Shown here: piece by piece, positions 510-61,867 of the stretch
Layout: every line of letters begins with the position of its first letter
How positions within the stretch are numbered: position 1 is the stretch's first letter
From: a virus
Taxonomy: Duplodnaviria; Caudoviricetes
DNA length: 64,000 nt
Reading direction: 5' to 3' (one strand)
IMG/VR virus record: IMGVR_UViG_3300009873_000001
Position numbers and translations under genes: made by a program
Notes under the pieces: model-generated
Told to the model about the DNA's origin: nothing
The model's database searches: none
Seen by the model: the letters and a program-made list of their open reading frames with translations, nothing else

Positions 510-1400
510 GTGGCTGACGTCAGGCTTCGCGAGCTGGGTCGACGCGCTCGAGCTGGGGATCAAGAGGCCGCGCTGCGGCTGATCAATGCCTGGGTCCGCA
601 GCGGGCAGTCTGCAGCGCCCATGGCCGCCATGGCCATGCAGCTCTTCGAGCGCGCCTTCGAGGACTGGACCAACCCGAAGATCCAGCCCCAGGGGGACTG
701 GGATCAGCGCGACCACGACGAGCGGCGCCGAGATCGGCACTTTCGTTGGCGCTACTGGCGCCTGGCCATGCACCCGAATTCGATCCCGTTCGAAAACCTC
801 GGTGTCGTCTGGCCGCTCGGCACTGCCCTCACGCCGACCGCCGAACAGCCGGAGTTCCGCGGCTTCACGGAGCGCATGGAGTGCCTCCTGGTGCGGGCCT
901 GGGACTGTGAAAGCTCGAAGCAGCTCGTGGAAGCCGCGGTGTTCGAGGCGCGGCTATTCGACGTAATCAACAGCATTGACCTGCGCGCGGGGCCGTGGTC
1001 TCCAGGCTATGCCACCCCGACATTGAATCGCGGCACGTTCGGGCTTGGAAACTGGCACCACCTGGAATACCGGCTTAGGCAAGCGTTGTCCGAGCGATTT
1101 TATGAATCGCAGGGCCTCGAGCCGCTCAGCGGGTGGGCTTTCGACTCGCCGTTCGAAGTGAGTATAGAACGCGGCGAGCAGGTCGACGTGCAGCACCTGC
1201 CGACCGAACGCGAGGAGTACGGCGCGCTGGTCAGAACCGGGCAACAACAAGCCGTCACGTTCGAGGTCACGCTCAGGATCGCGCACACGCTCGGGCCGGT
1301 CGTGATTCGCACGCCGCGACCAGAGCACCGCGGGCTGGAGAAGGACATTCGCGTACCCAATCCGATCCTGGCCATGCTCGTAGAGTTGGCGGCCAGCTAG
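510..1400 (+). CDS. hypothetical protein with N-terminal module A
   Basis: Starts MADVRLRELGRRARAGDQEAALRL; 296 aa. Confidence 0.8.
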   Translation: MADVRLRELGRRARAGDQEAALRLINAWVRSGQSAAPMAAMAMQLFERAFEDWTNPKIQPQGDWDQRDHDERRRDRHFRWRYWRLAMHPNSIPFENLGVVWPLGTALTPTAEQPEFRGFTERMECLLVRAWDCESSKQLVEAAVFEARLFDVINSIDLRAGPWSPGYATPTLNRGTFGLGNWHHLEYRLRQALSERFYESQGLEPLSGWAFDSPFEVSIERGEQVDVQHLPTEREEYGALVRTGQQQAVTFEVTLRIAHTLGPVVIRTPRPEHRGLEKDIRVPNPILAMLVELAAS

Positions 1401-4243: not shown

Positions 4244-4684
4244 GGGGACGAATTGGTATCGACTGAAAGGAGGAAGGAGATCGGTGCGCGCCGAGGTTGA
4301 TCGGTGGGACTCGCTAAAAGCCGATCAGATTCCATCTGCCAACGTCAACAACGTCAGCACCCCCGACTGGCTGAGCGACGAGTCGCTCGCGTCCTTCATG
4401 GACGCGGTCGAGTCCGAGCAGCTGGTCGCCGCGATCTAGTAGCAGCTAGATCGGCGAGTCCTGTGGAGCCTCCCGCCTCAGAGGCAAAGCAGGGCTGGGT
4501 CAGCAAATGAGGCTGGGTCGAAAGTCAGGCGACTGGACTGAGACCGAGATCATGTGACCGCTGGAGGCCGGATCTGGCGTTGAGCCCAGGCCGGCTTCGA
4601 GAGCCGCAAGGCAGCGCTCGACTACGCGCGTAGAGCCGCTTCTGAAACCTTGACAGGACCCGGGTTCGAACCCCGGCGTCTCCA
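4244..4684 (+). ncRNA. ssrA: tmRNA
   Basis: 5' GGGGACGAATTGGTATCGAC; 3' GACCCGGGTTCGAACCCCGGCGTCTCCA; acceptor stem with G3.U wobble and A discriminator; tag frame 4338-4439 (ANVNN...QLVAAI*) with stop in a hairpin. Confidence 0.93.
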
Positions 4685-4700
4685 TTCGCCCGACCGGCAG

Positions 4701-4735
4701 GCAGCAGCGAGCTTCACGGCTCGCTGTTGTCGTTT
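4701..4735 (+). terminator. hairpin after tmRNA (terminator or processing signal)
   Basis: GCAGCAGCGAGC/GCTCGCTGTTGT stem followed by CGTTT. Confidence 0.5.
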
Positions 4736-4765
4736 GCGGCCGGCCACTGTTTGCGGCCGGCCACT
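4732..4765. repeat. 17-bp tandem duplication
   Basis: GTTTGCGGCCGGCCACT twice, exact. Confidence 0.85.
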
Positions 4766-4788
4766 GCCTGCCCTGTGATACTAGAGGC

Positions 4789-6309
4789 ATGCCTGGCCCA
4801 ATGTTTGAGTTCTTCCCGTTCTCTGGCGCGACGCCCGGTCCGACTGGCCCCACAGGCTCAGCTGGCTCTTCCGGCCCTACAGGACCAGCAGGCGGGCCGA
4901 CTGGCCCAGCAGGGCCAGCTGGACCGACCGGGCCAGCTGGCGGCCCGACCGGAGCCACCGGCGCTTCAGGAACGCCTGGACCGACAGGTCCGCCGGGCGG
5001 CCCGACAGGCCCGGCAGGCCCGACGGGACCCCCTGGAGCGGACGGCGCACAGGGGCCTGCCGGACCCGCTGGCCCTTCAGGCACAGACGGGCAGACTGGT
5101 TCAACTGGCGCCACGGGCTCTGTAGGGCCAGCTCTGGCTTCGCGCAGAACCTTCTCGCCTACACGCCTCGTGGCCGAGGGTGCCTCCATTCCAGCCACGC
5201 CTAGCTCCGTGCTCAACCTGGCCGACCTGAGCAACCGCGACCCGTGGGTCAATCTCGACGAGGTCTATTCCCTGTCGCGATTCGATCTGGTCGTAGCCAC
5301 CGAAGAAGGCTCGGTCACTCGCTATCCAGGTCTGAGCTTCGCCTCTCGAGTTGCTCTTCTGGCTTGGCTGAACGCAAACGTCCCCTCTGACGGCAGCGCC
5401 TTCCTGGCCTCGGCGACCATGACGGCCTGGGACGAAGTCGACCAGTCCATGCCGCCAGTCACCAAGGTGTGGGGCAAGAACGGCGCGCTGTCTCGCCTCA
5501 GAAAGAACGACTTCTACAAGAGCCCCAGCCGCGGTTATGTCGAGCTAAACTCCTGGCCTGATCTCGACGTCTTCCTTGCCGCGGCCTGGGAGGCGGTCTG
5601 GCCCGGCGACCCGCTGCCCTCTCCGCTCACGCCTGACGTCCGAGCTGCGTTCTGGTGGGCCAAGAACCGCCGGAACCTGTACGAGATCGAGAAGAGCTTC
5701 GGAATTCAACCGTCTTTCGGCAGAACGTCCCGCGCTGGTGCCGGCGGTCCGTTCGGACCTACCGGCACAGGTTTCAGCTGGGCCTATCAGTCGAGTGGAG
5801 ATCCGGCATACGGGATCGTCGATTCTTCCGGCGGCGGGTTTGTACAGGTTCTTCCGCTATCTCAGTTCAGGAGAGACAACCGAAAGATCTCTGACGCCGG
5901 CCGCAGCGCGGTGTTTCTGGCGCCCATTCAAGGCGGCGTGAACGAACGCGCGGTGTGGATCAAGCCGGTGGGGATCGACCAGATTTACCTCTCGTGGTTC
6001 GACCCGACGCTCTATCGAGCAGAGGCCATTGTCACGCCCAACATAGACGGCAAGCGCGAAGCGCGCGTCCTCACAGCCTCTCGTTCGCCGTCCGTGGTTC
6101 GGGACGCCTCCGGCGCCTTCACCAAGGATCAGTGGTATCGGGGCCAGCAAATTTCTGTTTCGCAGGGCGGGCACCGCCACGGGCCTGGGCGCTGCCACTT
6201 CTACCTGCGCGAGCTGGCCACGGGCAAGGTGAGCGAGCTCAGCACGGCCAGGGTCGAGTACCTCGACGACCGAACCCTGTCCGCCGGTATGGCACGCGTG
6301 GTAAGCTAA
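4789..6309 (+). CDS. collagen-like (Gly-X-Y) protein, possible fibre or surface protein
   Basis: About 100 aa of GPT/GPA repeats followed by a ~390-aa globular region. Confidence 0.85.
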
Positions 6310-10983: not shown

Positions 10984-11463
10984 TCATTCATGCGCCCAGC
11001 ACTCCCCACTGTGCCCACGCACCTTCCAGCAGGTCGGACAGTTGCCGGCCTTGGCCCGCTCTGGCATGGGATTGTCCGGCGACGGGTCGCCGCGCTTCCA
11101 TGGATTCTTGCAGCGCACCCCGTTCGCGTCTATGTCCTTGAACATGCGCCGCCAGTCGGTCACGCCCACCGTCGGCTGTATACACGTCGGGATCCTGAAC
11201 GGCTTCCCCTTGGGTATGTTTCGCTGGTAGCGAACCCTCACCGCGCCGTTCTTCCAACGCTTGACCTCCAGCACGCGGATCACCGGATCGTAGAGGTGGT
11301 CCGTGGTCAGCACCACGCGATCCCCTGGTCGCGGATCGATTCGAGGGTCGCGCCCATGGCGAGTCGACCAGGCAACCCACTGAGCCACGACAGCAGGATC
11401 CTCGCTGTTGAGCTTCTGGGAGCCGAGATCACGGACGGCGCGTCTGAATCTGGCGTCGCTCAT
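10984..11463 (-). CDS. module-A-like leader plus RDPRxDPxPGD domain
   Basis: MSDARFRRAVRDLG...RDPRIDPRPGD; paralogue of 34248..34643. Confidence 0.7.
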   Translation of the reverse strand: MSDARFRRAVRDLGSQKLNSEDPAVVAQWVAWSTRHGRDPRIDPRPGDRVVLTTDHLYDPVIRVLEVKRWKNGAVRVRYQRNIPKGKPFRIPTCIQPTVGVTDWRRMFKDIDANGVRCKNPWKRGDPSPDNPMPERAKAGNCPTCWKVRGHSGECWAHE

Positions 11464-32543: not shown

Positions 32544-33112
32544 AGGCGCACAGGAACACCTCCGAAGACGAGCGACTCCGCCGCGCCGCACGCGAGGCCG
32601 GTCTCTCTGCGGAAAAGCTAGGCCGGCTGATCAGGGAGCTGGTCCGCGCCGGTCATGGCCCGCACCCGCTGAGCGACGAGTTGAGCCTCGATATCGAGGC
32701 GCGGGTCAGGCTCCTCAAACGGCGCGTCGAAAGAAGAGGCGAGCTCCACGACCACGAGATCACGGGCGTAGCCGACATGTTCGCTCAGTACGTCGTGCTC
32801 CTCGAGCAAGAAGACTACTGGCTCACAGGGCGACCCACTCAGCCATGGTCGCGAGTCGACTGCGTGGCGGCAGAGGAATCCGGCGCCTACGAGGACTTCT
32901 TCTGGGTCATAGGCGCCAGTGAAGGATTCGACGTCAGCAACGACGAAGACCGCGACATATGGTTCATAGATCTCTCCGAGCAGTCTGCCGACTACCAGCT
33001 CTTCCACCGTCGCCTCTACGCCACCGCGACCAAGCTCCATAGGCGCTGGCTGCGCGAGTTGGGCATAGGCCCCTTGCTGCGACCACAGCGGAGGAGGCGC
33101 CGTGCTGAGTGA
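32540..33112 (+). CDS. module A protein
   Basis: MKAHRNTSEDERLRRAAREAG...RELVRAG. Confidence 0.75.
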   Translation: MKAHRNTSEDERLRRAAREAGLSAEKLGRLIRELVRAGHGPHPLSDELSLDIEARVRLLKRRVERRGELHDHEITGVADMFAQYVVLLEQEDYWLTGRPTQPWSRVDCVAAEESGAYEDFFWVIGASEGFDVSNDEDRDIWFIDLSEQSADYQLFHRRLYATATKLHRRWLRELGIGPLLRPQRRRRRAE

Positions 33113-33758
33113 GCTGCACGAGAATCCGCCTGGCAGTGACGCCAGAATCGAGGCCCTGCGCCGTCAGGCCGAGTTGGGCGACCTGCAGGCTGCGACACAG
33201 CTCTACGTCGAACTCGCTCGGCGCGGCATGGCGCCCATTCCGATCTGGAACCGCTGCCAGGTATTCCGGGCCTATCTTGAAGAGGCGATCAGCTCGCTGC
33301 GGATGTGGAGCGGGAACTTCCAAAGAGATCCAGGCGCGATCGTCGTGGATAACCGCCGCGGCCAGTATTCGGTTCGGCACAGGGTCGACTGGCCATTCAG
33401 GCGCGCCCCAGAGACGGTCGAGCTGGCCTTCTTTCACCACAGGCCGCCAGCCGTCTTTGCTCACGACGACGGATTCTTCGCCGCCTTCCTGGAATCTCCT
33501 GTCACAACCTCCGAAGAGCGCTACGTGGCGGTGTTCTTGACCATGTACACCAACCAGCACGCCTTCCGCGACGTTGTCAGCCGCAAGAGGAACTACTACG
33601 GCAAACGCCTGAACTTCCTCTACGGCTTGAATCCAGACGCGCCCGTCCTAGAGAGCGGTAGAATCAACAGTAGCTGGCCGCGCGACGACACCGGCCGGCT
33701 CGACATGTTCAACTTGGTCTCAGACCCGACTATCCTCACTGAGTGGAGACGCCCATGA
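33102..33758 (+). CDS. module A protein
   Basis: ...SDARIEALRRQAELGDLQAATQL...RRG. Confidence 0.75.
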   Translation: MLSELHENPPGSDARIEALRRQAELGDLQAATQLYVELARRGMAPIPIWNRCQVFRAYLEEAISSLRMWSGNFQRDPGAIVVDNRRGQYSVRHRVDWPFRRAPETVELAFFHHRPPAVFAHDDGFFAAFLESPVTTSEERYVAVFLTMYTNQHAFRDVVSRKRNYYGKRLNFLYGLNPDAPVLESGRINSSWPRDDTGRLDMFNLVSDPTILTEWRRP

Positions 33759-34261
33759 AGGCTGACGTGCTCAAGCTAGCTGGCCTCGCGTTCTGCTGGG
33801 GCTACGCCAAGAGCCGCTCAGTCAACGGCGAGACCATGAAAAGCGACTGCGCCGATTCGATCTATCAGATGGCCAAGCACTCGGTCAGCCCCGGCCAGCT
33901 GATCATGAACGCCGGCCTCGGGCCACTGCAAGAGGAAATGCTGTTCCGCGCAGGGATCCAGCCCAAGATCGGCCTGGCACCCACAGCGGCCATATTCGGG
34001 GCCTTCCACATTCGTCGCATGGACGCTCAGAACGTCGCCCACGCCGCGGACGCTGGCCTGGGCGGATTGCTCTACGGCTTCGTCTACGACCACTTCGGCC
34101 TGGGCGCCTCGACCTTGGTCCACGGAGCCCACAACCTCGGCGTGGCGATCGGAACTCTGTTCTCTGCCAAGCAAGAGCTAGGGCGCCGGGTCAACGCCAA
34201 GAAGAGGGCCAATAACCTGCAGGGGCTTCCCAAGAAGCTCCGGCCGCTCAGGCGTCGCTAG
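33755..34261 (+). CDS. CPBP (CAAX/Abi/Rce1-like) intramembrane protease
   Basis: PLQEEMLFR, FGAFH, VHGAHN. Confidence 0.8.
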   Translation: MKADVLKLAGLAFCWGYAKSRSVNGETMKSDCADSIYQMAKHSVSPGQLIMNAGLGPLQEEMLFRAGIQPKIGLAPTAAIFGAFHIRRMDAQNVAHAADAGLGGLLYGFVYDHFGLGASTLVHGAHNLGVAIGTLFSAKQELGRRVNAKKRANNLQGLPKKLRPLRRR

Positions 34262-34643
34262 GCGCGTCTTCCGGCGCGCGCTCCTCGGCCATGCGCACGA
34301 CTTCTCCGTGGCGGGTCCGACGACGCCAAGTCTCAATGCTGCAGAGCGTGAAGCGCGGGTGATAGCAGAAGCCAGCGCCGTCTTCGGGTCCGTAGAGCCA
34401 AAGAACTCTGCCCCAGAGAACCTCCACGATCTCGCCTTGCTCGTTTTCAATGATCTTGCGCACAAACCGCGTGAACCGCTCGGGTCTGGCATGCGGCACG
34501 ATCTCTGTGCGCACGACGTCGCCAGGAACGGGATCTAGCCGCGGATCGCGCAGCCGGAGAAGCCCTGCACGCCAGCGACGCCGCGCTTCACGGTCGCCAG
34601 CTCTAGCACGGCGCTCGAGGTCGCGCAGACCCGCGTCGCTCAT
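34248..34643 (-). CDS. module A plus RDPRxDPxPGD domain protein
   Basis: MSDAGLRDLERRARAGDREA...RDPRLDPVPGD. Confidence 0.8.
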   Translation of the reverse strand: MSDAGLRDLERRARAGDREARRRWRAGLLRLRDPRLDPVPGDVVRTEIVPHARPERFTRFVRKIIENEQGEIVEVLWGRVLWLYGPEDGAGFCYHPRFTLCSIETWRRRTRHGEVVRMAEERAPEDAPSDA

Positions 34644-34849
34644 TCACACAGCGGCTTGTCGCGCGGCTTGCCTATGAGCGCCAGCCACCGCCTGGCCTCT
34701 TGCGCGCCTTCACGGCCCTGGGTGGTGTAGTCATGCGTGTTGTTGAGTGCGGCCCACAAGAACCGCAACGCCTCGTCGTCCGGCCTGGGCACGAGCAGTT
34801 GCCCGGCGCGCTCAGCCTCGCGCACAGCTCTCTGAACACGCTCGTCCAT
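34640..34849 (-). CDS. module B protein (alternative GTG start at 34927)
   Basis: MDERVQRAVREAERAGQLLVPRP...WLALIG. Confidence 0.7.
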   Translation of the reverse strand: MDERVQRAVREAERAGQLLVPRPDDEALRFLWAALNNTHDYTTQGREGAQEARRWLALIGKPRDKPLCE

Positions 34850-35194
34850 GTTGGCACCGATCATCCAGTTGGAAGGATTTTGCGGATCGTGATAGAAGGT
34901 CGGAATCGCTACGACGTAAAGGGTCACGACGCCGGCCTGCGCTCGTCCATGACTCCCGAGCCGCACTTCGGACAGCGCTGAGAGGCCAGCTGGAACTGCC
35001 TCCCCTTCCAGCCGCAGAACTCGCACTCCTTGCGCTGAGCCGGCCCGCGCGGCCAGGCGCTCAGGTCTTCGAGCGCTGCGCAGGTCGTGGTCTCGTGCCA
35101 GTCGCGGCAGGGCGTCGTGGGGCAGACCCAGACCTGCTTGTTCGCGGAGATCATGCAATCCGAGCAGCACATGGACGTGACCGACGAGCAGACG

Positions 35195-35788
35195 CTACAC
35201 GGGGCTGGCATGGGCAGCGACGCTCTTGTCGAGCCTGACCGTGAAGGCACGTATCGGCGGTTGCCCAGGGATCGGGTGCGGCATGGGCGGGCCGTCCTCG
35301 AACGCCTCCACAGCGTACTTGGACACGATCTTGAGCGACCCGTCTGGAGTGGGTGTGATCGTCGCCAGCAGGACCCCGTCTCGCTCCTGGACCTCGCAGA
35401 CGTCCACGTCTCGGATCTCATGCCGCCTGGCCACGAACTTCAACGGCAGGAGGACCGGAGCAGACAGCCGAAGGCCAGACGAAGCTGCACCGGTCGTGCA
35501 GGCTCCGCCGTCGTCCAGCTCCGGGTTGTTGGCCGCGCCTTGGAGGTCGGGCTTTTCGCGCGCAGTCAGCATGTCTTCGATCTGCTTCTTCGTGGCCTCC
35601 ACGTCCGGCCTGAGCGCGAGCGAGTTCATGATCGGCTTGCCGGTGGCCGGATCGTTGACCACGATCCGCGTGTAGCCGGACCCGGCCATGCCGTAGGTGT
35701 TCGGGCCGAACTGCGCTATGCACCGTTCCTGCTCGTCGCGCAGGGTGTGATAGCCCTCGCCGTCGTGACTCCACTGAAAACCGGCCAT
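35195..35788 (-). CDS. hypothetical protein
   Basis: GGAGG RBS; TAATG overlap with the methyltransferase stop. Confidence 0.7.
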   Translation of the reverse strand: MAGFQWSHDGEGYHTLRDEQERCIAQFGPNTYGMAGSGYTRIVVNDPATGKPIMNSLALRPDVEATKKQIEDMLTAREKPDLQGAANNPELDDGGACTTGAASSGLRLSAPVLLPLKFVARRHEIRDVDVCEVQERDGVLLATITPTPDGSLKIVSKYAVEAFEDGPPMPHPIPGQPPIRAFTVRLDKSVAAHASPV

Positions 35789-36726
35789 TAGGCCTCCTTC
35801 CACCGAGCGAGCGCGCGTTCGGCGCGCTTCCGGTCACGTTCCACACCGACCGCTGAGATGCCGAGCCGCTTGGCGACGACCGCGGTCTGGCCGGCGCCTA
35901 GGAAAGTATCTAGCACGACCTGTCGCTCTCCGCGCGCGGCAAGCCCGGCGCAGCCAGACACCTTCAGACAGCGCTCCACGAGTTCGGCTGGATACTCGTA
36001 GTCGTGGGCCTTCTTCTTGGTAGCGCCGGTAGTTTCATAGCCCACGACCCACACATCCCCACCGCAGCGGAGATTTCCGTTCTTCCCTCGAGTCCCTCTG
36101 GTCAGATTCGACTGATCCGCGAACGGCACGCCTACCGCCAGCCGGTCCAGCTCCGGCTCACCACCAAGAGCGGTCGGCTTGAAGGCCGTGAACAAGTGCT
36201 CCCAGGAGTAGTTGAGCAGGTTCGGGCTGTTCAGCGGCTGGCAGTGCCCACGGCAAGGTTGTCCAGGACCAGGCGAGTAACTCTTCACCCACGCGATCTG
36301 CTGGTGGGCGACCAGCGCGTCGTCCATGCCCAATGACCCGTTCAGGAAGCCGGAGAACGCCTTCCACGGGCGCAAGAAGTCTTCGCGAAGCTGGCCGAAG
36401 TTGAAGAACACCCAGGCGCCCGGCACGAGCGCGCGGTGTGCGAACTCGCCCACGGTCTGCATGAGCTCGTGATCGAACCCGTCGGCCTTCTTGTACGGCG
36501 GGCTCGTGACGAGCACGTTGGCCGCGCCGCCCTCTAACCAGCTCGAATCCCAGACCTCGCGCACGTCAGCTAGTGCGATCATGATGTTGAGATCGCCTTG
36601 CTGAGCTTCAAGGATCTCGAGCCGCGGATCACGCAGGCGAAGGAGACCTGCGCGCAAGCGCTGTTGCGCCTCGCGGTCGCCGGCTTTAGCACGGCGCTCA
36701 AGTTCTCGTAGGCTTGCGTCGCTCAA
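35788..36726 (-). CDS. beta-class N4-cytosine/N6-adenine DNA methyltransferase with N-terminal module A
   Basis: VTSPPY precedes VLDTFLGAGQT. Confidence 0.88.
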   Translation of the reverse strand: MSDASLRELERRAKAGDREAQQRLRAGLLRLRDPRLEILEAQQGDLNIMIALADVREVWDSSWLEGGAANVLVTSPPYKKADGFDHELMQTVGEFAHRALVPGAWVFFNFGQLREDFLRPWKAFSGFLNGSLGMDDALVAHQQIAWVKSYSPGPGQPCRGHCQPLNSPNLLNYSWEHLFTAFKPTALGGEPELDRLAVGVPFADQSNLTRGTRGKNGNLRCGGDVWVVGYETTGATKKKAHDYEYPAELVERCLKVSGCAGLAARGERQVVLDTFLGAGQTAVVAKRLGISAVGVERDRKRAERALARWKEA

Positions 36727-37220
36727 TCGGCGTTGTCCTGGTCGTAGGTGATCCCGTGATCTTTCGTGGTCTGACGGCGAAAGTCAGCTTGCTGTTGAGC
36801 GCGCCACTTGTTGTGGTGCTCCTCGATCTCTTGCTGCGAGATCCCGCACCCGCAGCCGATCGCGCTGCAGTGCGGCCTGTAGCGCGACTCCCAGTCGCGG
36901 TGCTTCTCGCGCATGTGGCCGTTGATACTGTGCTTGCAGGACGGGCACAACAAATCTGCGTCGCTGGTCCGAGCAGCTGAGCCAGGTGCGCCAAAATTTG
37001 GAGGGACCTTCTTGAGCCCTTCGTCGAGGGCCCTGCTGATCAGCATGCAGGACAAGGACAGCGAATGCAGGTGCTCCCACGTTCGAATCCGATCCGGCCC
37101 CGTACGCAGCTCCTCCTGAAGCACGACAGCCAAAAGCTTGTCGAATTCCTCCGGGCCGAGCGACGACAAGCCGCCGTTTAGCAGGTAGCGCACGCCGCGT
37201 CTGGCGTCTTCGTCGCTCAC
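36723..37220 (-). CDS. hypothetical protein with Cys/His cluster
   Basis: MSDEDARRGVR...; CPSCKH...H...C..C.C. Confidence 0.65.
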   Translation of the reverse strand: MSDEDARRGVRYLLNGGLSSLGPEEFDKLLAVVLQEELRTGPDRIRTWEHLHSLSLSCMLISRALDEGLKKVPPNFGAPGSAARTSDADLLCPSCKHSINGHMREKHRDWESRYRPHCSAIGCGCGISQQEIEEHHNKWRAQQQADFRRQTTKDHGITYDQDNAD

Positions 37221-37636
37221 CGCTTCGCCTTCTTTCTCTTGGCGGGCTTCTTCTTGCGCGCCTTGCGAGACAGCCCGTAGTCCAAAGCCTCGATTGCGCT
37301 CACGAACTCGTCCAGGTCGGCGTAGACGGGTGCTTCCATATCGAGCTTGTCAGGATCGAAGAGCCCGAGCCTGCCCGCCCAGCGCATCCACTGGTTGGGC
37401 GCCTGCATGCGCCAGAGCACGATCGTAGCGCCAGCGCAATGTTGCTCGTCCGCGTCGTAGGGCCGGCGCTCGACGTCCTCTGCGGCGCCGTAATCGATCG
37501 TCTTGTGGCAGGTGAAGTGCCGGTCGCCCTTGAGCGCGTCGGCGATCTCGCGCGCCCGCCCCGGGGCCAGATAGAACGGCTTGTCCGTGCGGAATGGGCA
37601 ATTGTCACACGGCTTGGTCATGTCGAACCTAGGCAT
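37217..37636 (-). CDS. Cys-rich phage protein (DUF6283-like)
   Basis: PCDNCPFR...FTCHKT...HCAGA. Confidence 0.7.
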   Translation of the reverse strand: MPRFDMTKPCDNCPFRTDKPFYLAPGRAREIADALKGDRHFTCHKTIDYGAAEDVERRPYDADEQHCAGATIVLWRMQAPNQWMRWAGRLGLFDPDKLDMEAPVYADLDEFVSAIEALDYGLSRKARKKKPAKRKKAKR

Positions 37637-38166
37637 CCGACCTCAACGTGCCGTGCAAGCTCCCCACCCTCTCCTGAGCCTCGCCCTCAGCCACAGTCTT
37701 GCGCACGCACTCCAAGCAGGTGTGACCTTTGTTCCAAACGTCGTTCACAGCCACGATCACGTCGACCGTGACCTTGCCCAGCTTGAAGATCGTCCGGTTG
37801 AAGTCTTCGGAAATCGCCGCGCCGCAGTTATCGCAGAAGAGCTTGATCATGAGAGCCGCCTCGTGCCGCACTTCCAGCAGGCGCCTTCTTCGGTACAGTT
37901 GACGTCGTCGGTGGGCACGCCGCAGCATGAGCAGGTGCCGTGGTGACTCCCGCGCGGCCTGCTCCGATCCATAACCTGTCCGTGAGGGCACGCCTGCGAC
38001 CTGGGCGGCTCCATGTCGAGCACAGGGCCGTGCGCCCGCTTCGTGGCACCGCAGTTCTTGCACGTAGGCGTCGGCAGCACGATCGAATGGAAGGTTCGCG
38101 GCACGGTGACCGGACCGCCACACAGGCCACAGGTCCCCACTACCGTTTCGTTGATCCCAACCGAGG

Positions 38167-58846: not shown

Positions 58847-59236
58847 GTGGATCGCCGCCTGAGAGAACTCGAACGCCTGGCAGAGACGGGTGACGCCGCG
58901 GCGAAAGAGCGACTCAAGCTCAAGCGCGACCGCGCCGGCCGGCCGGTCTTCACGCGCGACACCATGCCCGCCGGCTTGCGTTGCAGGGTGAAAGAAAACC
59001 TCTGCGCTCCGCACGGCTATGGCGCGGGCAGCTGGCCACCGCGATTCGTTCAGGCCGGGTCGCTCGTCGCGATCATAGGTCCGCGCAACACCGAGCGGCA
59101 CGGAAAACACAAGCGCCAGCAGTGGTACGACGTGGAGGTCTTCGGCAAGGCCGGCAACGTGATCGGTCGCACGTACCTTCCCAGCAACTGGCTCGAACCG
59201 GAGATCCCGTGGACGACGAACTCCAACGCGCCTTGA
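58847..59236 (+). CDS. module A protein with SH3-like region
   Basis: GGAGA RBS; MDRRLRELERLAETGDAAAKERL. Confidence 0.75.
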   Translation: MDRRLRELERLAETGDAAAKERLKLKRDRAGRPVFTRDTMPAGLRCRVKENLCAPHGYGAGSWPPRFVQAGSLVAIIGPRNTERHGKHKRQQWYDVEVFGKAGNVIGRTYLPSNWLEPEIPWTTNSNAP

Positions 59237-61002: not shown

Positions 61003-61515
61003 GTGAAGATCGTGAGCGGCGGCCAGACCGGCGCCGACCGCGGCGCGCTAATCGCAGCCAAGCGGCTCGGCGTGTCTTACGGAGGGTGGATACCGCGCGG
61101 TCGCAGGGCCGAGGACGGGGTCATTCCGTTCGAGTTCGACCAACTTCAGGAGCACCCCAGCTCTGACTACCCGCCGCGCACCTACGCCAACGTGCGCGAC
61201 AGCGACGGCACGCTCCTGATCGCCCGACTTCCGCTTCGAGGCGGGTCTGACCTGACCCTGAGCTACGTGCGCGAACTCGACAAGCCGGTGTTCAGGCTCG
61301 ACGCCCAGACCGTCCTCGACACAGACGAGCACGCCTTTTTGGTATCGTCCCTGATCGAATGGACGACCGAGCAAGGAATCAAGACCCTGAACGTGGCCGG
61401 CTCCAGGGAGAGCAGCGTCAAGGGGCTGCAGGGCGCCGTGGCCGGCCTGATCATGAGGTTCCTGCGTGAGCGATCAGCGCCAACGCCAGCTCGAGCGCCA
61501 GGCGCGCCTCGGTGA
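61003..61515 (+). CDS. SLOG-superfamily cpYpsA ('putative molybdenum carrier') protein
   Basis: IVSGGQTGADRGAL...RTYANVRDSDGTL...LNVAGSRES. Confidence 0.88.
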   Translation: MKIVSGGQTGADRGALIAAKRLGVSYGGWIPRGRRAEDGVIPFEFDQLQEHPSSDYPPRTYANVRDSDGTLLIARLPLRGGSDLTLSYVRELDKPVFRLDAQTVLDTDEHAFLVSSLIEWTTEQGIKTLNVAGSRESSVKGLQGAVAGLIMRFLRERSAPTPARAPGAPR

Positions 61516-61867
61516 CAAGCAGGCCGCGCGGGCCGCGGAGCGCGGGCAAGAGCGCGTCAGCGGCCCTGGCGTGAAGCTCAAAGCTCTAGCTGAGCTGATC
61601 TACGCCAGCACGGGGCCGGCGGCAGGCGAAGAAACGCCTTGGGGATACCTGCAATCCGCCCACGCCAGGCTCACAGCTTGGTGCGAGGGCGGCCCGCACA
61701 AGAAGCAGCTACGCTGGGCGGCTGACGACCTCAAGAAGGCCGAGACCTCCATTTCCTACTACAGCCACGACTGGCCCTCTTCGTGGGGCGCGCACCAGCG
61801 CGCTTCGGCGGCGTTCTGGGAAGTCCTGCGCGGCTTGCAAGACATACTAGCGGAGTGCCGTACATGA
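61466..61867 (+). CDS. module A protein
   Basis: MSDQRQRQLERQARLGDKQAA. Confidence 0.75.
   Translation: MSDQRQRQLERQARLGDKQAARAAERGQERVSGPGVKLKALAELIYASTGPAAGEETPWGYLQSAHARLTAWCEGGPHKKQLRWAADDLKKAETSISYYSHDWPSSWGAHQRASAAFWEVLRGLQDILAECRT

What the first reader, a model, noticed from the sequence alone, without database searches (positions are those of the whole stretch)
34248..36726. Apparent recent grafting of module A onto a DNA methyltransferase
Seen: the first 36 codons of 34643(-) and 36726(-) are highly similar (MSDAGLRDLERRARAGDREARRRWRAGLLRLRDPRL versus MSDASLRELERRAKAGDREAQQRLRAGLLRLRDPRL), with many synonymous differences, and then diverge abruptly. RDPR is the start of the RDPRxDPxPGD domain shared by 34643 and 11463, so the methyltransferase seems to have taken its leader from a 34643-type gene. 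Inference: module shuffling with selection at the peptide level. A tagged methyltransferase would fit co-injection or localisation to protect phage DNA.
Basis: partly seen in the sequence, partly recalled or inferred. Interest (0 to 1): 0.7.

Follow-up and report, generated by a model that had tools for sequence, protein, structure and literature searches.

The report
Portable N-terminal tag fused to methyltransferase
A DNA methyltransferase of a huge uncultured sludge virus has had its first few codons replaced by a 36-residue two-helix tag copied from a neighbouring small gene; a 91%-identical relative lacks the tag, and the same undescribed tag opens more than a hundred unrelated protein families, so it is probably an address or docking label, though its function is untested.

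Summary
Codons 1-36/37 of ORF 34248-34643(-) and of the methyltransferase (MTase) ORF 35788-36726(-) are a 112-nt repeat, 79% identical. It starts exactly at the two start codons and ends after RDPRL.

- **The leader is translated.** Differences fall 1/4/19 on codon positions 1/2/3, and dN/dS is about 0.1.
- **The donor was a 34643-type gene.** The leader carries the first five residues of the donor's RDPR barrel domain, and that domain exists elsewhere without the tag. The nearest known leader is the window's own.
- **No MTase homologue found has the leader.** This includes a 91%-identical orthologue that starts directly at the junction. Gain on this branch is the most parsimonious reading.
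- **"Recent" holds only on the MTase's own clock.** Synonymous sites between the two leaders are near saturation (dS about 1.0).
- **An internal Met49 start is unlikely.** It would cut a conserved N-terminal beta-hairpin.

Module A matches no catalogued family. It occurs in 139 protein clusters, nearly always at residue 1 or straight after Asn/Glu in multi-module proteins. Its function (address or docking tag, possibly virion loading) is inferred, not shown. Sibling notes of this scan on the same genome already flagged module A.

The parts
36619..36726 (-). Module-A leader of the methyltransferase: codons 1-36, TTG start overlapping the upstream stop as TTGA. Predicted as two helices (res 3-14, 18-30) ending in the RDPRL stub of the donor domain.
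35788..36618 (-). Beta-class N6/N4 DNA methyltransferase core. It has an N-terminal beta-hairpin (res 37-52), SPPY motif IV (res 75-78) and FxGxG motif I (res 275-279).
   Evidence: PF01555 E=3e-14, res 71-303; alignment A2; AF2 pLDDT 83
34536..34643 (-). Module-A leader of the 131-aa gene (probable donor type): codons 1-36, ATG start overlapping the upstream stop as ATGA.
34248..34535 (-). RDPR domain of the 131-aa protein. It is predicted as a small five-stranded beta-barrel plus a short helix, with no significant match to a solved fold.
   Evidence: alignment A9; AF2 pLDDT 84; Foldseek best E=0.05
10984..11463 (-). Paralogue of the RDPR family with a strongly diverged two-helix leader and a Cys-rich C-terminal extension.
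36723..37220 (-). Upstream gene (165 aa, weak zinc-finger-like Pfam hits). Its TGA stop overlaps the methyltransferase's TTG start.
34640..34849 (-). Small gene (69 aa from Met at 34849). Its stop overlaps the ATG of the 131-aa gene, and it carries a different shared N-terminal module.
510..1400 (+). Another module-A gene (296 aa), with the tag at residues 1-33.
   Evidence: general module-A HMM, E=4e-13
61466..61867 (+). Another module-A gene (133 aa), with the tag at residues 1-33.
   Evidence: E=6e-11
58847..59236 (+). Another module-A gene. The tag follows a GTG at 58847.
   Evidence: E=6e-9
33102..33758 (+). Module-A gene with a short pre-sequence ending in Asn-Pro-Pro-Gly before the tag.
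   Evidence: E=1e-4

Best explanation
The first 36 codons of the methyltransferase gene are a translated, selectively maintained copy of the N-terminus of an RDPR-family gene of the 34643 type.

What the copy contains: the two-helix 'module A' plus the first five residues (RDPRL) of the donor's beta-barrel domain.

What it replaced: the enzyme's own short N-terminus. The 91%-identical orthologue has only five residues before the shared EILEA. The replacement was an in-frame 5' swap. The most economical route is a deletion that fused a tagged gene lying directly upstream to the methyltransferase, which would also keep the tag's own stop-overlapping start.

When: it happened in this virus's lineage at or after its split from the leaderless orthologue. 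That is long enough ago for synonymous sites to saturate.

What module A is (inferred): a portable tag that must sit at a free N-terminus, either at residue 1 or straight after an Asn or Glu seam in multi-module proteins. It opens more than 100 otherwise unrelated, mostly uncharacterised protein families. The tag probably docks its bearer onto a common partner or destination. The methyltransferase would then go wherever the other module-A proteins go, which may be the virus particle.

Shown: the repeat, its limits, translation and purifying selection, absence from homologues, and the breadth of the tag. Inferred: direction, mechanism of the fusion, and all function.
For: - Repeat and limits.
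- Translation and selection: codon-position differences 1/4/19, dN/dS 0.105, Fisher p = 1.6e-6. TTGA/ATGA start-stop overlaps, and AGGA 9 nt before the TTG. The JGI gene call starts at the same TTG.
- Junction: the predicted strands 37-43 and 46-52 align with the N-terminal hairpin of homologues P0002, P0003, P0005, P0012 and P0017. P0189 begins MTASF and then EILEA, exactly at the junction.
- Direction: the 131-aa family keeps tag plus RDPR domain in P0050, P0051, P0057, P0058, P0060 and others. RDPR-domain proteins in L002 and L004 start at the RDPR motif with no tag. The methyltransferase leader is closest to the resident P0049 (29/36), then P0050 (26/34).
- Homologues lack the leader: 47 protein clusters and the six viral loci whose N-termini were read out of 28 found, among them the leaderless copy in a 245-kb relative that does carry module-A genes.
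- Timing: methyltransferase core vs L051 (90.6% aa) gives dS 0.77; leader pair gives dS 1.0.
- Breadth: the 40-position leader profile finds 139 of 1.84 billion representatives at E<=1e-3. 106 of 154 motif copies start within the first few residues. Internal copies are preceded by Asn 37/48 or Glu 6/48.
- 8-9 genes in this window carry the tag.
- No Pfam, PHROG, NCBIfam or PDB match for it.
Against: - The polarity (gain here versus loss there) therefore rests on parsimony with outgroups at 62% identity or less.
- L051 is cut off before the N-terminus.
- dS on 35 codons is imprecise (0.7-1.4).
- The only assemblies that cover the junction come from one activated-sludge sample that may be the source of the window. 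There is no independent confirmation of the junction and no read-level or RNA evidence.
- Nothing shows what the tag binds, whether it is cleaved, or whether any module-A protein is in particles.
- TTG is a weak start codon.
Confidence: 0.7

Rival explanations
1. The leader is ancestral to the roughly 90%-identity methyltransferase group and was lost in the P0189 lineage. The window would then show retention, not a graft on its own branch.
For: Window, P0189 and L051 form an unresolved trio at 89-91% identity. L051's N-terminus is unknown. The leader dS of 1.0 is a little above the 0.77 measured for the methyltransferase at that level of divergence.
Against: This needs two events instead of one. 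All outgroups (P0002-P0021, and the six viral loci read among L005-L032) lack the leader. A graft from an RDPR-type gene is still required earlier.
Confidence: 0.17
2. The leader came from an RDPR-family gene of another, co-infecting virus and not from the resident 34643 gene.
For: dS between the two resident copies (1.0) is as large as between the window and the relative virus L001 (1.13-1.16). RDPR-family genes with very similar leaders occur in several metagenomic lineages.
Against: The resident copy is the nearest of all known leaders: 29/36 against at most 26/34. With saturated synonymous sites the two cases cannot really be separated.
Confidence: 0.25
3. The leader is not part of the enzyme. 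Translation starts at the internal Met49 (MIALAD) and the upstream frame is untranslated.
For: TTG is a rare start. Many beta-class methyltransferases begin a few residues before the equivalent of ADVRE. An ATG is present at 36582.
Against: 19 of 24 differences lie at third codon positions and dN/dS is 0.1, also for codons 2-23 alone. There is no stop between the TTG and Met49. Met49 has no Shine-Dalgarno-like motif at normal spacing (AAGG at -17), while the TTG has AGGA at -13 and a TTGA overlap. Met49 lies inside predicted strand 46-52, which homologues conserve together with strand 37-43.
Confidence: 0.03
4. On function: module A is specifically a virion-loading signal, so the methyltransferase is packaged and co-injected to protect incoming DNA, as P1 packages its Dar proteins.
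For: The tag needs a free N-terminus and follows Asn or Glu seams in polyprotein-like chains. In L041 a module-A protein, with the tag preceded by V-Q-E, sits directly upstream of a T4-like portal gene with a 4-nt overlap. P1 Dar proteins are internal head proteins co-ejected with the DNA (PMC12810830).
Against: There is no particle proteome. In this window the module-A genes lie among small non-structural-looking genes. Only one portal adjacency was seen. No cleavage or partner was identified. A methyltransferase normally acts on replicating DNA and needs no packaging.
Confidence: 0.3
5. On function: module A is a generic single Sel1/TPR-like hairpin for dimerisation or binding to a host or viral hub, unrelated to particles.
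For: It is a two-helix hairpin. The leader profile also hits a genuine Sel1-repeat protein, P0061 (seven stretches, E=1e-8). In many bearers the hairpin continues into longer helical proteins.
Against: Pfam's Sel1 model does not match the leader. The strict placement at residue 1 or straight after Asn/Glu is not expected of an ordinary repeat.
Confidence: 0.3

Closest known systems
Beta-class N6/N4 DNA methyltransferases (Pfam PF01555; solved examples M.MboIIA 1G60 and CcrM 6PBD)
   Same: Motif IV (SPPY) near the N-terminus and motif I (FxGxG) near the C-terminus. The Pfam score of 54 bits exceeds the 26.7-bit cut-off. C-terminal stretches match 1G60 and 6PBD.
   Different: No homologue examined carries a 36-residue two-helix N-terminal extension of this kind. 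Ser in motif IV suggests N4-cytosine rather than N6-adenine specificity; this rests on my own knowledge of the motif and was not tested.
Capsid targeting sequence (CTS) of phage T4 internal proteins IPI-III and Alt (own knowledge)
   Same: A short portable N-terminal peptide shared by unrelated proteins of one virus, transferable to new cargo.
   Different: The T4 CTS is about 10 residues, lies before a Leu/Ile-x-Glu cut and is removed. Module A is about 33 residues and helical, lies after the putative cut (Asn or Glu) or at Met1, and shows no conserved cut at its own end. Packaging is not shown.
Phage P1 Dar antirestriction proteins, including the very large DarB (PMC12810830; polyvalent proteins, PMC5512222)
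   Same: A precedent for DNA-protecting proteins carried in the head and co-ejected with the DNA.
   Different: No sequence relation. Dar loading depends on DarA/Hdf, not on a shared N-terminal tag. Nothing shows that this methyltransferase is in particles.
Sel1-like repeats (Pfam PF08238)
   Same: Helix-turn-helix unit with the pattern A-x-x-G-D/N-x-x-A-Q. The leader profile hits a true Sel1 protein.
   Different: A single unit, N-terminus-anchored. It is not recognised by the Pfam model.

Membership tests
Beta-class N6/N4 DNA methyltransferase (PF01555) | Profile score above Pfam's gathering threshold | tested here: met
   54 bits against 26.7, residues 71-303
Beta-class N6/N4 DNA methyltransferase (PF01555) | Motif IV (D/N/S)PP(Y/F) before motif I FxGxG (beta order) | tested here: met
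   S75 P76 P77 Y78 and F275 G277 G279 are invariant in alignment A2
Beta-class N6/N4 DNA methyltransferase (PF01555) | Methyl transfer to DNA, and target base and site | not testable with these tools
   Needs an enzyme assay or methylome sequencing
Module A (undescribed N-terminal tag, defined here from 154 copies) | Pattern [SA]-D-x-x-[LIM]-R-x-L-E-R-x-A-x-x-G-D-x-x-A, predicted helix-turn-helix | tested here: met
   Both leaders score E about 4e-11 against an HMM built only from external copies. Helices 3-14 and 18-30/31.
Module A (undescribed N-terminal tag, defined here from 154 copies) | Sits at residue 1, or directly after Asn/Glu in longer chains | tested here: met
   Both copies start at the initiator codon. 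In the family 106 of 154 copies are N-terminal; internal copies follow Asn 37/48 or Glu 6/48.
T4-type capsid targeting sequence | N-terminal peptide shared by unrelated proteins of one virus | tested here: met
   8-9 genes in the window
T4-type capsid targeting sequence | Tag removed at a prohead-protease site (L/I-x-E) that follows it | tested here: not met
   No conserved cut motif follows the tag. The conserved Asn/Glu lies before it.
T4-type capsid targeting sequence | Tagged proteins are found inside capsids | not testable with these tools
   Needs a virion proteome. Only one adjacency to a portal gene was seen, in L041.
Sel1 repeat (PF08238) | Match to the Pfam model | tested here: not met
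   No hit for either leader at E<=5
RDPR-barrel family (undescribed; donor gene) | R-D-P-R-x-x-P-x-x-G-D followed by a small beta-barrel ending in W-R-R-W | tested here: met
   Met for ORF 34248-34643 and ORF 10984-11463 (alignment A9). The methyltransferase keeps only RDPRL.

The most novel reading that the evidence does not exclude
Module A is the address code of a large clade of uncultured, GC-rich huge viruses. In this reading any protein that presents it at a free N-terminus (Met1, or a new end made by cutting after Asn or Glu) is delivered to one destination, most likely the particle, and travels with the genome. The tagged methyltransferase and its 91%-identical untagged orthologue would then be a natural before-and-after pair, showing the code being put onto a DNA-protecting enzyme.
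Probability: 0.3. Interest if true: 0.8.

Novelty: new variant of a known kind. Interest (0 to 1): 0.6.

Why it matters
Portable N-terminal tags that send arbitrary proteins to one place are known from very few phages, chiefly the T4 capsid targeting sequence. Here a tag matching no catalogued family opens at least 139 protein clusters, almost all of unknown function. One recognisable enzyme carries it, while a near-identical relative does not. That pair gives a clean handle. The same methyltransferase with and without 36 residues can be compared for localisation, partners, particle content and protection of incoming DNA. The result would also assign a role to the many unknown proteins that share the tag. 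It also documents domain shuffling at an exact domain boundary, complete with a five-residue scar from the donor.

Tried and rejected
The contigs of P0189, P0050 and P0004 could not be fetched, and synteny around the leaderless orthologue is unknown.
- No whole genome is held for the window.
- blastn of 34000-38000 against GenBank phages found no match.
- Two genome-contig scans with module-A patterns gave 354 and 13 pattern matches, none confirmed by tblastn. This is weak evidence that the tag is rare in cellular genomes, because the confirmation step is poorly suited to a 30-residue motif.
- A viral-contig scan with alignment A6 also failed at confirmation. A direct DNA pattern worked instead, though about half of its 15 matches are chance hits in other frames.
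- The metagenome scan with P0189 returned only an N-terminally truncated 90% relative (L051) and leaderless 63% relatives.
- The look-up of sequencing runs and read laying: only one activated-sludge sample holds the region, as an identical 16.6-kb contig that may be the window's own source. No variant contig and no raw reads were found, so this gives no independent support and no expression data.
- Protein atlas search with the leader gave no usable hit.
- PDB sequence search with the leader profile gave nothing below E=0.7.
- Foldseek of the 131-aa model gave no significant hit. The best were BAH/chromo-barrel-like at E=0.05, so I do not name a fold.
- A full-text search for a leader heptapeptide returned one unrelated paper.
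- The Shine-Dalgarno survey of 56 putative starts is only mildly informative: half have a motif.
- Rejected: an RNA-level or translation-initiation element as the reason for the conservation, because synonymous positions are saturated.
- Rejected: a graft extending to the GD after the junction, because ILEAQQGD aligns with the homologues' own hairpin.
Full report
**Observation**

ORF 34248-34643(-) encodes 131 aa from an ATG. ORF 35788-36726(-) encodes 312 aa from a TTG. They share their first 36-37 codons.
- The repeat finder lists 34534-34645 / 36617-36728 as a 112-nt direct repeat at 79% identity.
- The similarity starts at the initiator codon of both genes. Each initiator overlaps the stop of the gene before it (ATGA, TTGA).
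- The similarity stops after RDPRL(D/E). The 60 nt on either side are 18/60 and 17/60 identical.

**Is the leader made?**

- The 24 nucleotide differences fall 1/4/19 on codon positions 1/2/3 (chi-square p = 9e-6).
- Nei-Gojobori gives dN 0.10 and dS 0.98, a ratio of 0.105 (Fisher p = 1.6e-6). The first 23 codons alone behave the same way.
- No stop separates the leader from the enzyme.
- The TTG has AGGA nine bases upstream. The internal ATG (Met49) has no motif at usable spacing.
- The JGI gene call on the 273-kb contig uses the same TTG (P0190).
- AlphaFold2 (pLDDT 83) predicts helices 3-14 and 18-30, then strands 37-43 and 46-52. That hairpin aligns with the native N-termini of homologues P0002, P0003, P0005, P0012 and P0017.

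A Met49 start would delete one strand and split the other. I take the 312-residue fusion protein to be the product. An additional shorter form cannot be excluded.

**What the two genes are**

The 312-aa protein is a beta-class N6/N4 DNA methyltransferase.
- PF01555 scores 54 bits against a cut-off of 26.7, over residues 71-303.
- SPPY lies at residues 75-78 and FxGxG at 275-279.
- The C-terminal part matches M.MboIIA and CcrM.

The 131-aa protein has no catalogued family.
- With its relatives it forms a family of [module A] + RDPRxxPxxGD + a small predicted beta-barrel ending in WRRW (alignment A9; model pLDDT 84).
- It has no significant structural neighbour.
- ORF 10984-11463(-) is a diverged paralogue.

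**Direction of transfer**

- In two other viral contigs the RDPR domain stands alone. Those proteins begin one to ten residues before RDPR and have no module A (L002, L004). RDPR therefore belongs to the barrel domain, not to the tag.
- The methyltransferase leader nevertheless ends in RDPRL, a five-residue scar of the donor's domain.
- From residue 37-38 onward (ILEAQQGD...) it aligns with the methyltransferase family's own hairpin.
- Among all leaders recovered, the nearest to the methyltransferase's is the window's own 131-aa gene (29/36). The orthologue in a related virus comes next (26/34).

**Who else has it?**

None of the 47 other methyltransferase clusters found carries the leader. 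None of the six viral loci whose N-termini I read, out of 28 found, carries it either. That includes the copy in a 245-kb contig that does encode module-A genes elsewhere (L005, L044).

The 90%-identity cluster of the window's enzyme holds P0189. It is 91% identical over the core, and its N-terminus is five residues (MTASF) followed directly by EILEA, exactly at the junction. With leaderless outgroups, one gain on the window's branch is the most parsimonious reading. Loss in P0189 needs two events.

**How recent?**

- The leader pair has dS about 1.0 (0.7-1.4 from binomial error on 30 synonymous sites). That equals the values between orthologous leaders of the window and virus L001 (1.13).
- The methyltransferase core against a 90.6%-identical relative (L051) has dS 0.77 and dN 0.06.

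The two figures are compatible with a graft from the resident gene at about the time of that split. The event is young on the scale of the enzyme family. It is old enough that only peptide-level selection keeps the copies alike, so 'recent' is not the right word.

**What module A is**

A 40-position profile of six leaders was searched against 1.84 billion representative proteins.
- It gave 139 hits at E<=1e-3.
- Hit lengths run from 35 to 1,149 aa.
- About 110 of the hits have the match at residues 1-3x.

Cargo is almost entirely uncatalogued: Imm5-like 2, PQQ_2 2, NUDIX 1, FGE-sulfatase 1. No other bearer is a methyltransferase.

By a simple motif count there are 154 copies.
- 106 start at Met-[Ser/Ala]-Asp.
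- 48 are internal, preceded by Asn in 37 and by Glu in 6, typically as basic-basic-Asn-Pro-Asp.

Long proteins carry up to six copies.

An HMM built only from these external copies finds 8-9 genes in the window: 513, 36723, 34640, 61469, 58850, 33135, 58567 and 30820.

No Pfam, PHROG, NCBIfam or PDB entry matches the tag. A text search found nothing. The tag resembles one Sel1-type hairpin, and a true Sel1 protein is hit, but Pfam's Sel1 model does not recognise it.

Two scans of 185,579 species genomes confirmed no copy, though the method is weak for so short a motif. The region is held by one activated-sludge sample.

**Mechanism**

Shown: a translated two-helix N-terminal extension under purifying selection. 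It is dispensable for the fold, is polymorphic between near-identical enzymes, and belongs to a large family of N-terminus-anchored tags.

Inferred: the tag docks its bearer to a shared partner or destination. The equivalence of Met1 with an Asn or Glu seam suggests that a free N-terminus is needed and that multi-module chains are cut.

One viral contig places a module-A protein, with the tag preceded by V-Q-E, directly upstream of a T4-like portal gene. This hints at head cargo, and P1's Dar proteins give a precedent for co-ejected DNA protection (PMC12810830). No particle, cut or partner has been observed. I rate virion loading and hub docking about equally.

**Relation to earlier notes of this scan**

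Sibling notes on the same genome had already named module A on four genes beside a CPBP protease (e1-5686444). They had also proposed Asn-cut polyproteins that regenerate the tag (e1-5686461). My counts on external proteins agree with the Asn/Glu placement. I did not test cleavage. Notes that the genome is a 273-kb jelly-roll-capsid virus were not tested here.

**Limits**

- There are no raw reads or RNA.
- All assemblies of the junction may stem from one sample.

Noticed in passing
window 34924-35172 (-): An 82-aa ORF starting MCCSDC, with two CxxC pairs near its C-terminus (zinc-ribbon-like) and GC3 of 0.90. It fills the gap between genes 35195-35803 and 34640-34849. The longer ORFs listed over this stretch are probably not the real genes.
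   Followed up: partly
window 27315, 27980 (+) and 34849 (-): A second shared N-terminal module (V/M-D-E-x-L/V-Q-R-A-x-R-E-A-E-R-A-G, then L-V-P-R-P in two of the three) opens three small genes. The first two copies are a 64-nt repeat at 73% identity that includes the stop of the preceding gene. The third is the gene directly upstream of the 131-aa gene.
   Followed up: partly
proteins P0052-P0188: In 48 internal copies of module A the residue five places before the Leu-Arg of the motif is Asn 37 times and Glu 6 times. In N-terminal copies it is the initiator Met. Asn is followed by Pro in 26 of 48.
   Followed up: partly
L041:2402-4246 and 4246-6054: A 615-aa ORF with a ParB C-terminal-like region (phrog_2579) and an internal module A preceded by P-V-Q-E overlaps by 4 nt the start of a T4-like portal gene (PF07230, E=5e-18). 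This relative of the tag system is therefore a tailed-phage-type contig.
   Followed up: partly
L047 (IMGVR_UViG_3300019458_000005): Four consecutive large ORFs (343-817 residues between stops) each carry module A. Three carry it deep inside the chain (two after Asn-Pro-Asp) and one near its start. One ends in DUF6884. They look like chains of tagged modules.
   Followed up: no
window 33743-34261 (+): A CPBP/Rce1-like intramembrane protease gene (PF02517, E=1.5e-9) converges on the 131-aa gene. Their 3' ends overlap by 14 nt (34248-34261).
   Followed up: no
window 36619-36726 and 34536-34643: GC3 of both leaders (0.61-0.64) is well below the 0.75-0.85 typical of genes in the window. This fits relaxed or structure-avoiding codon choice at 5' ends.
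   Followed up: no
L035:2407-2793 (IMGVR_UViG_3300009514_000378): The contig looks AT-rich, judged from its Lys/Asn/Ile-rich ORFs (GC was not computed). It encodes a 128-aa protein with a clear module A followed by a Cys/His-rich domain, so the tag may not be confined to GC-rich viruses.
   Followed up: no
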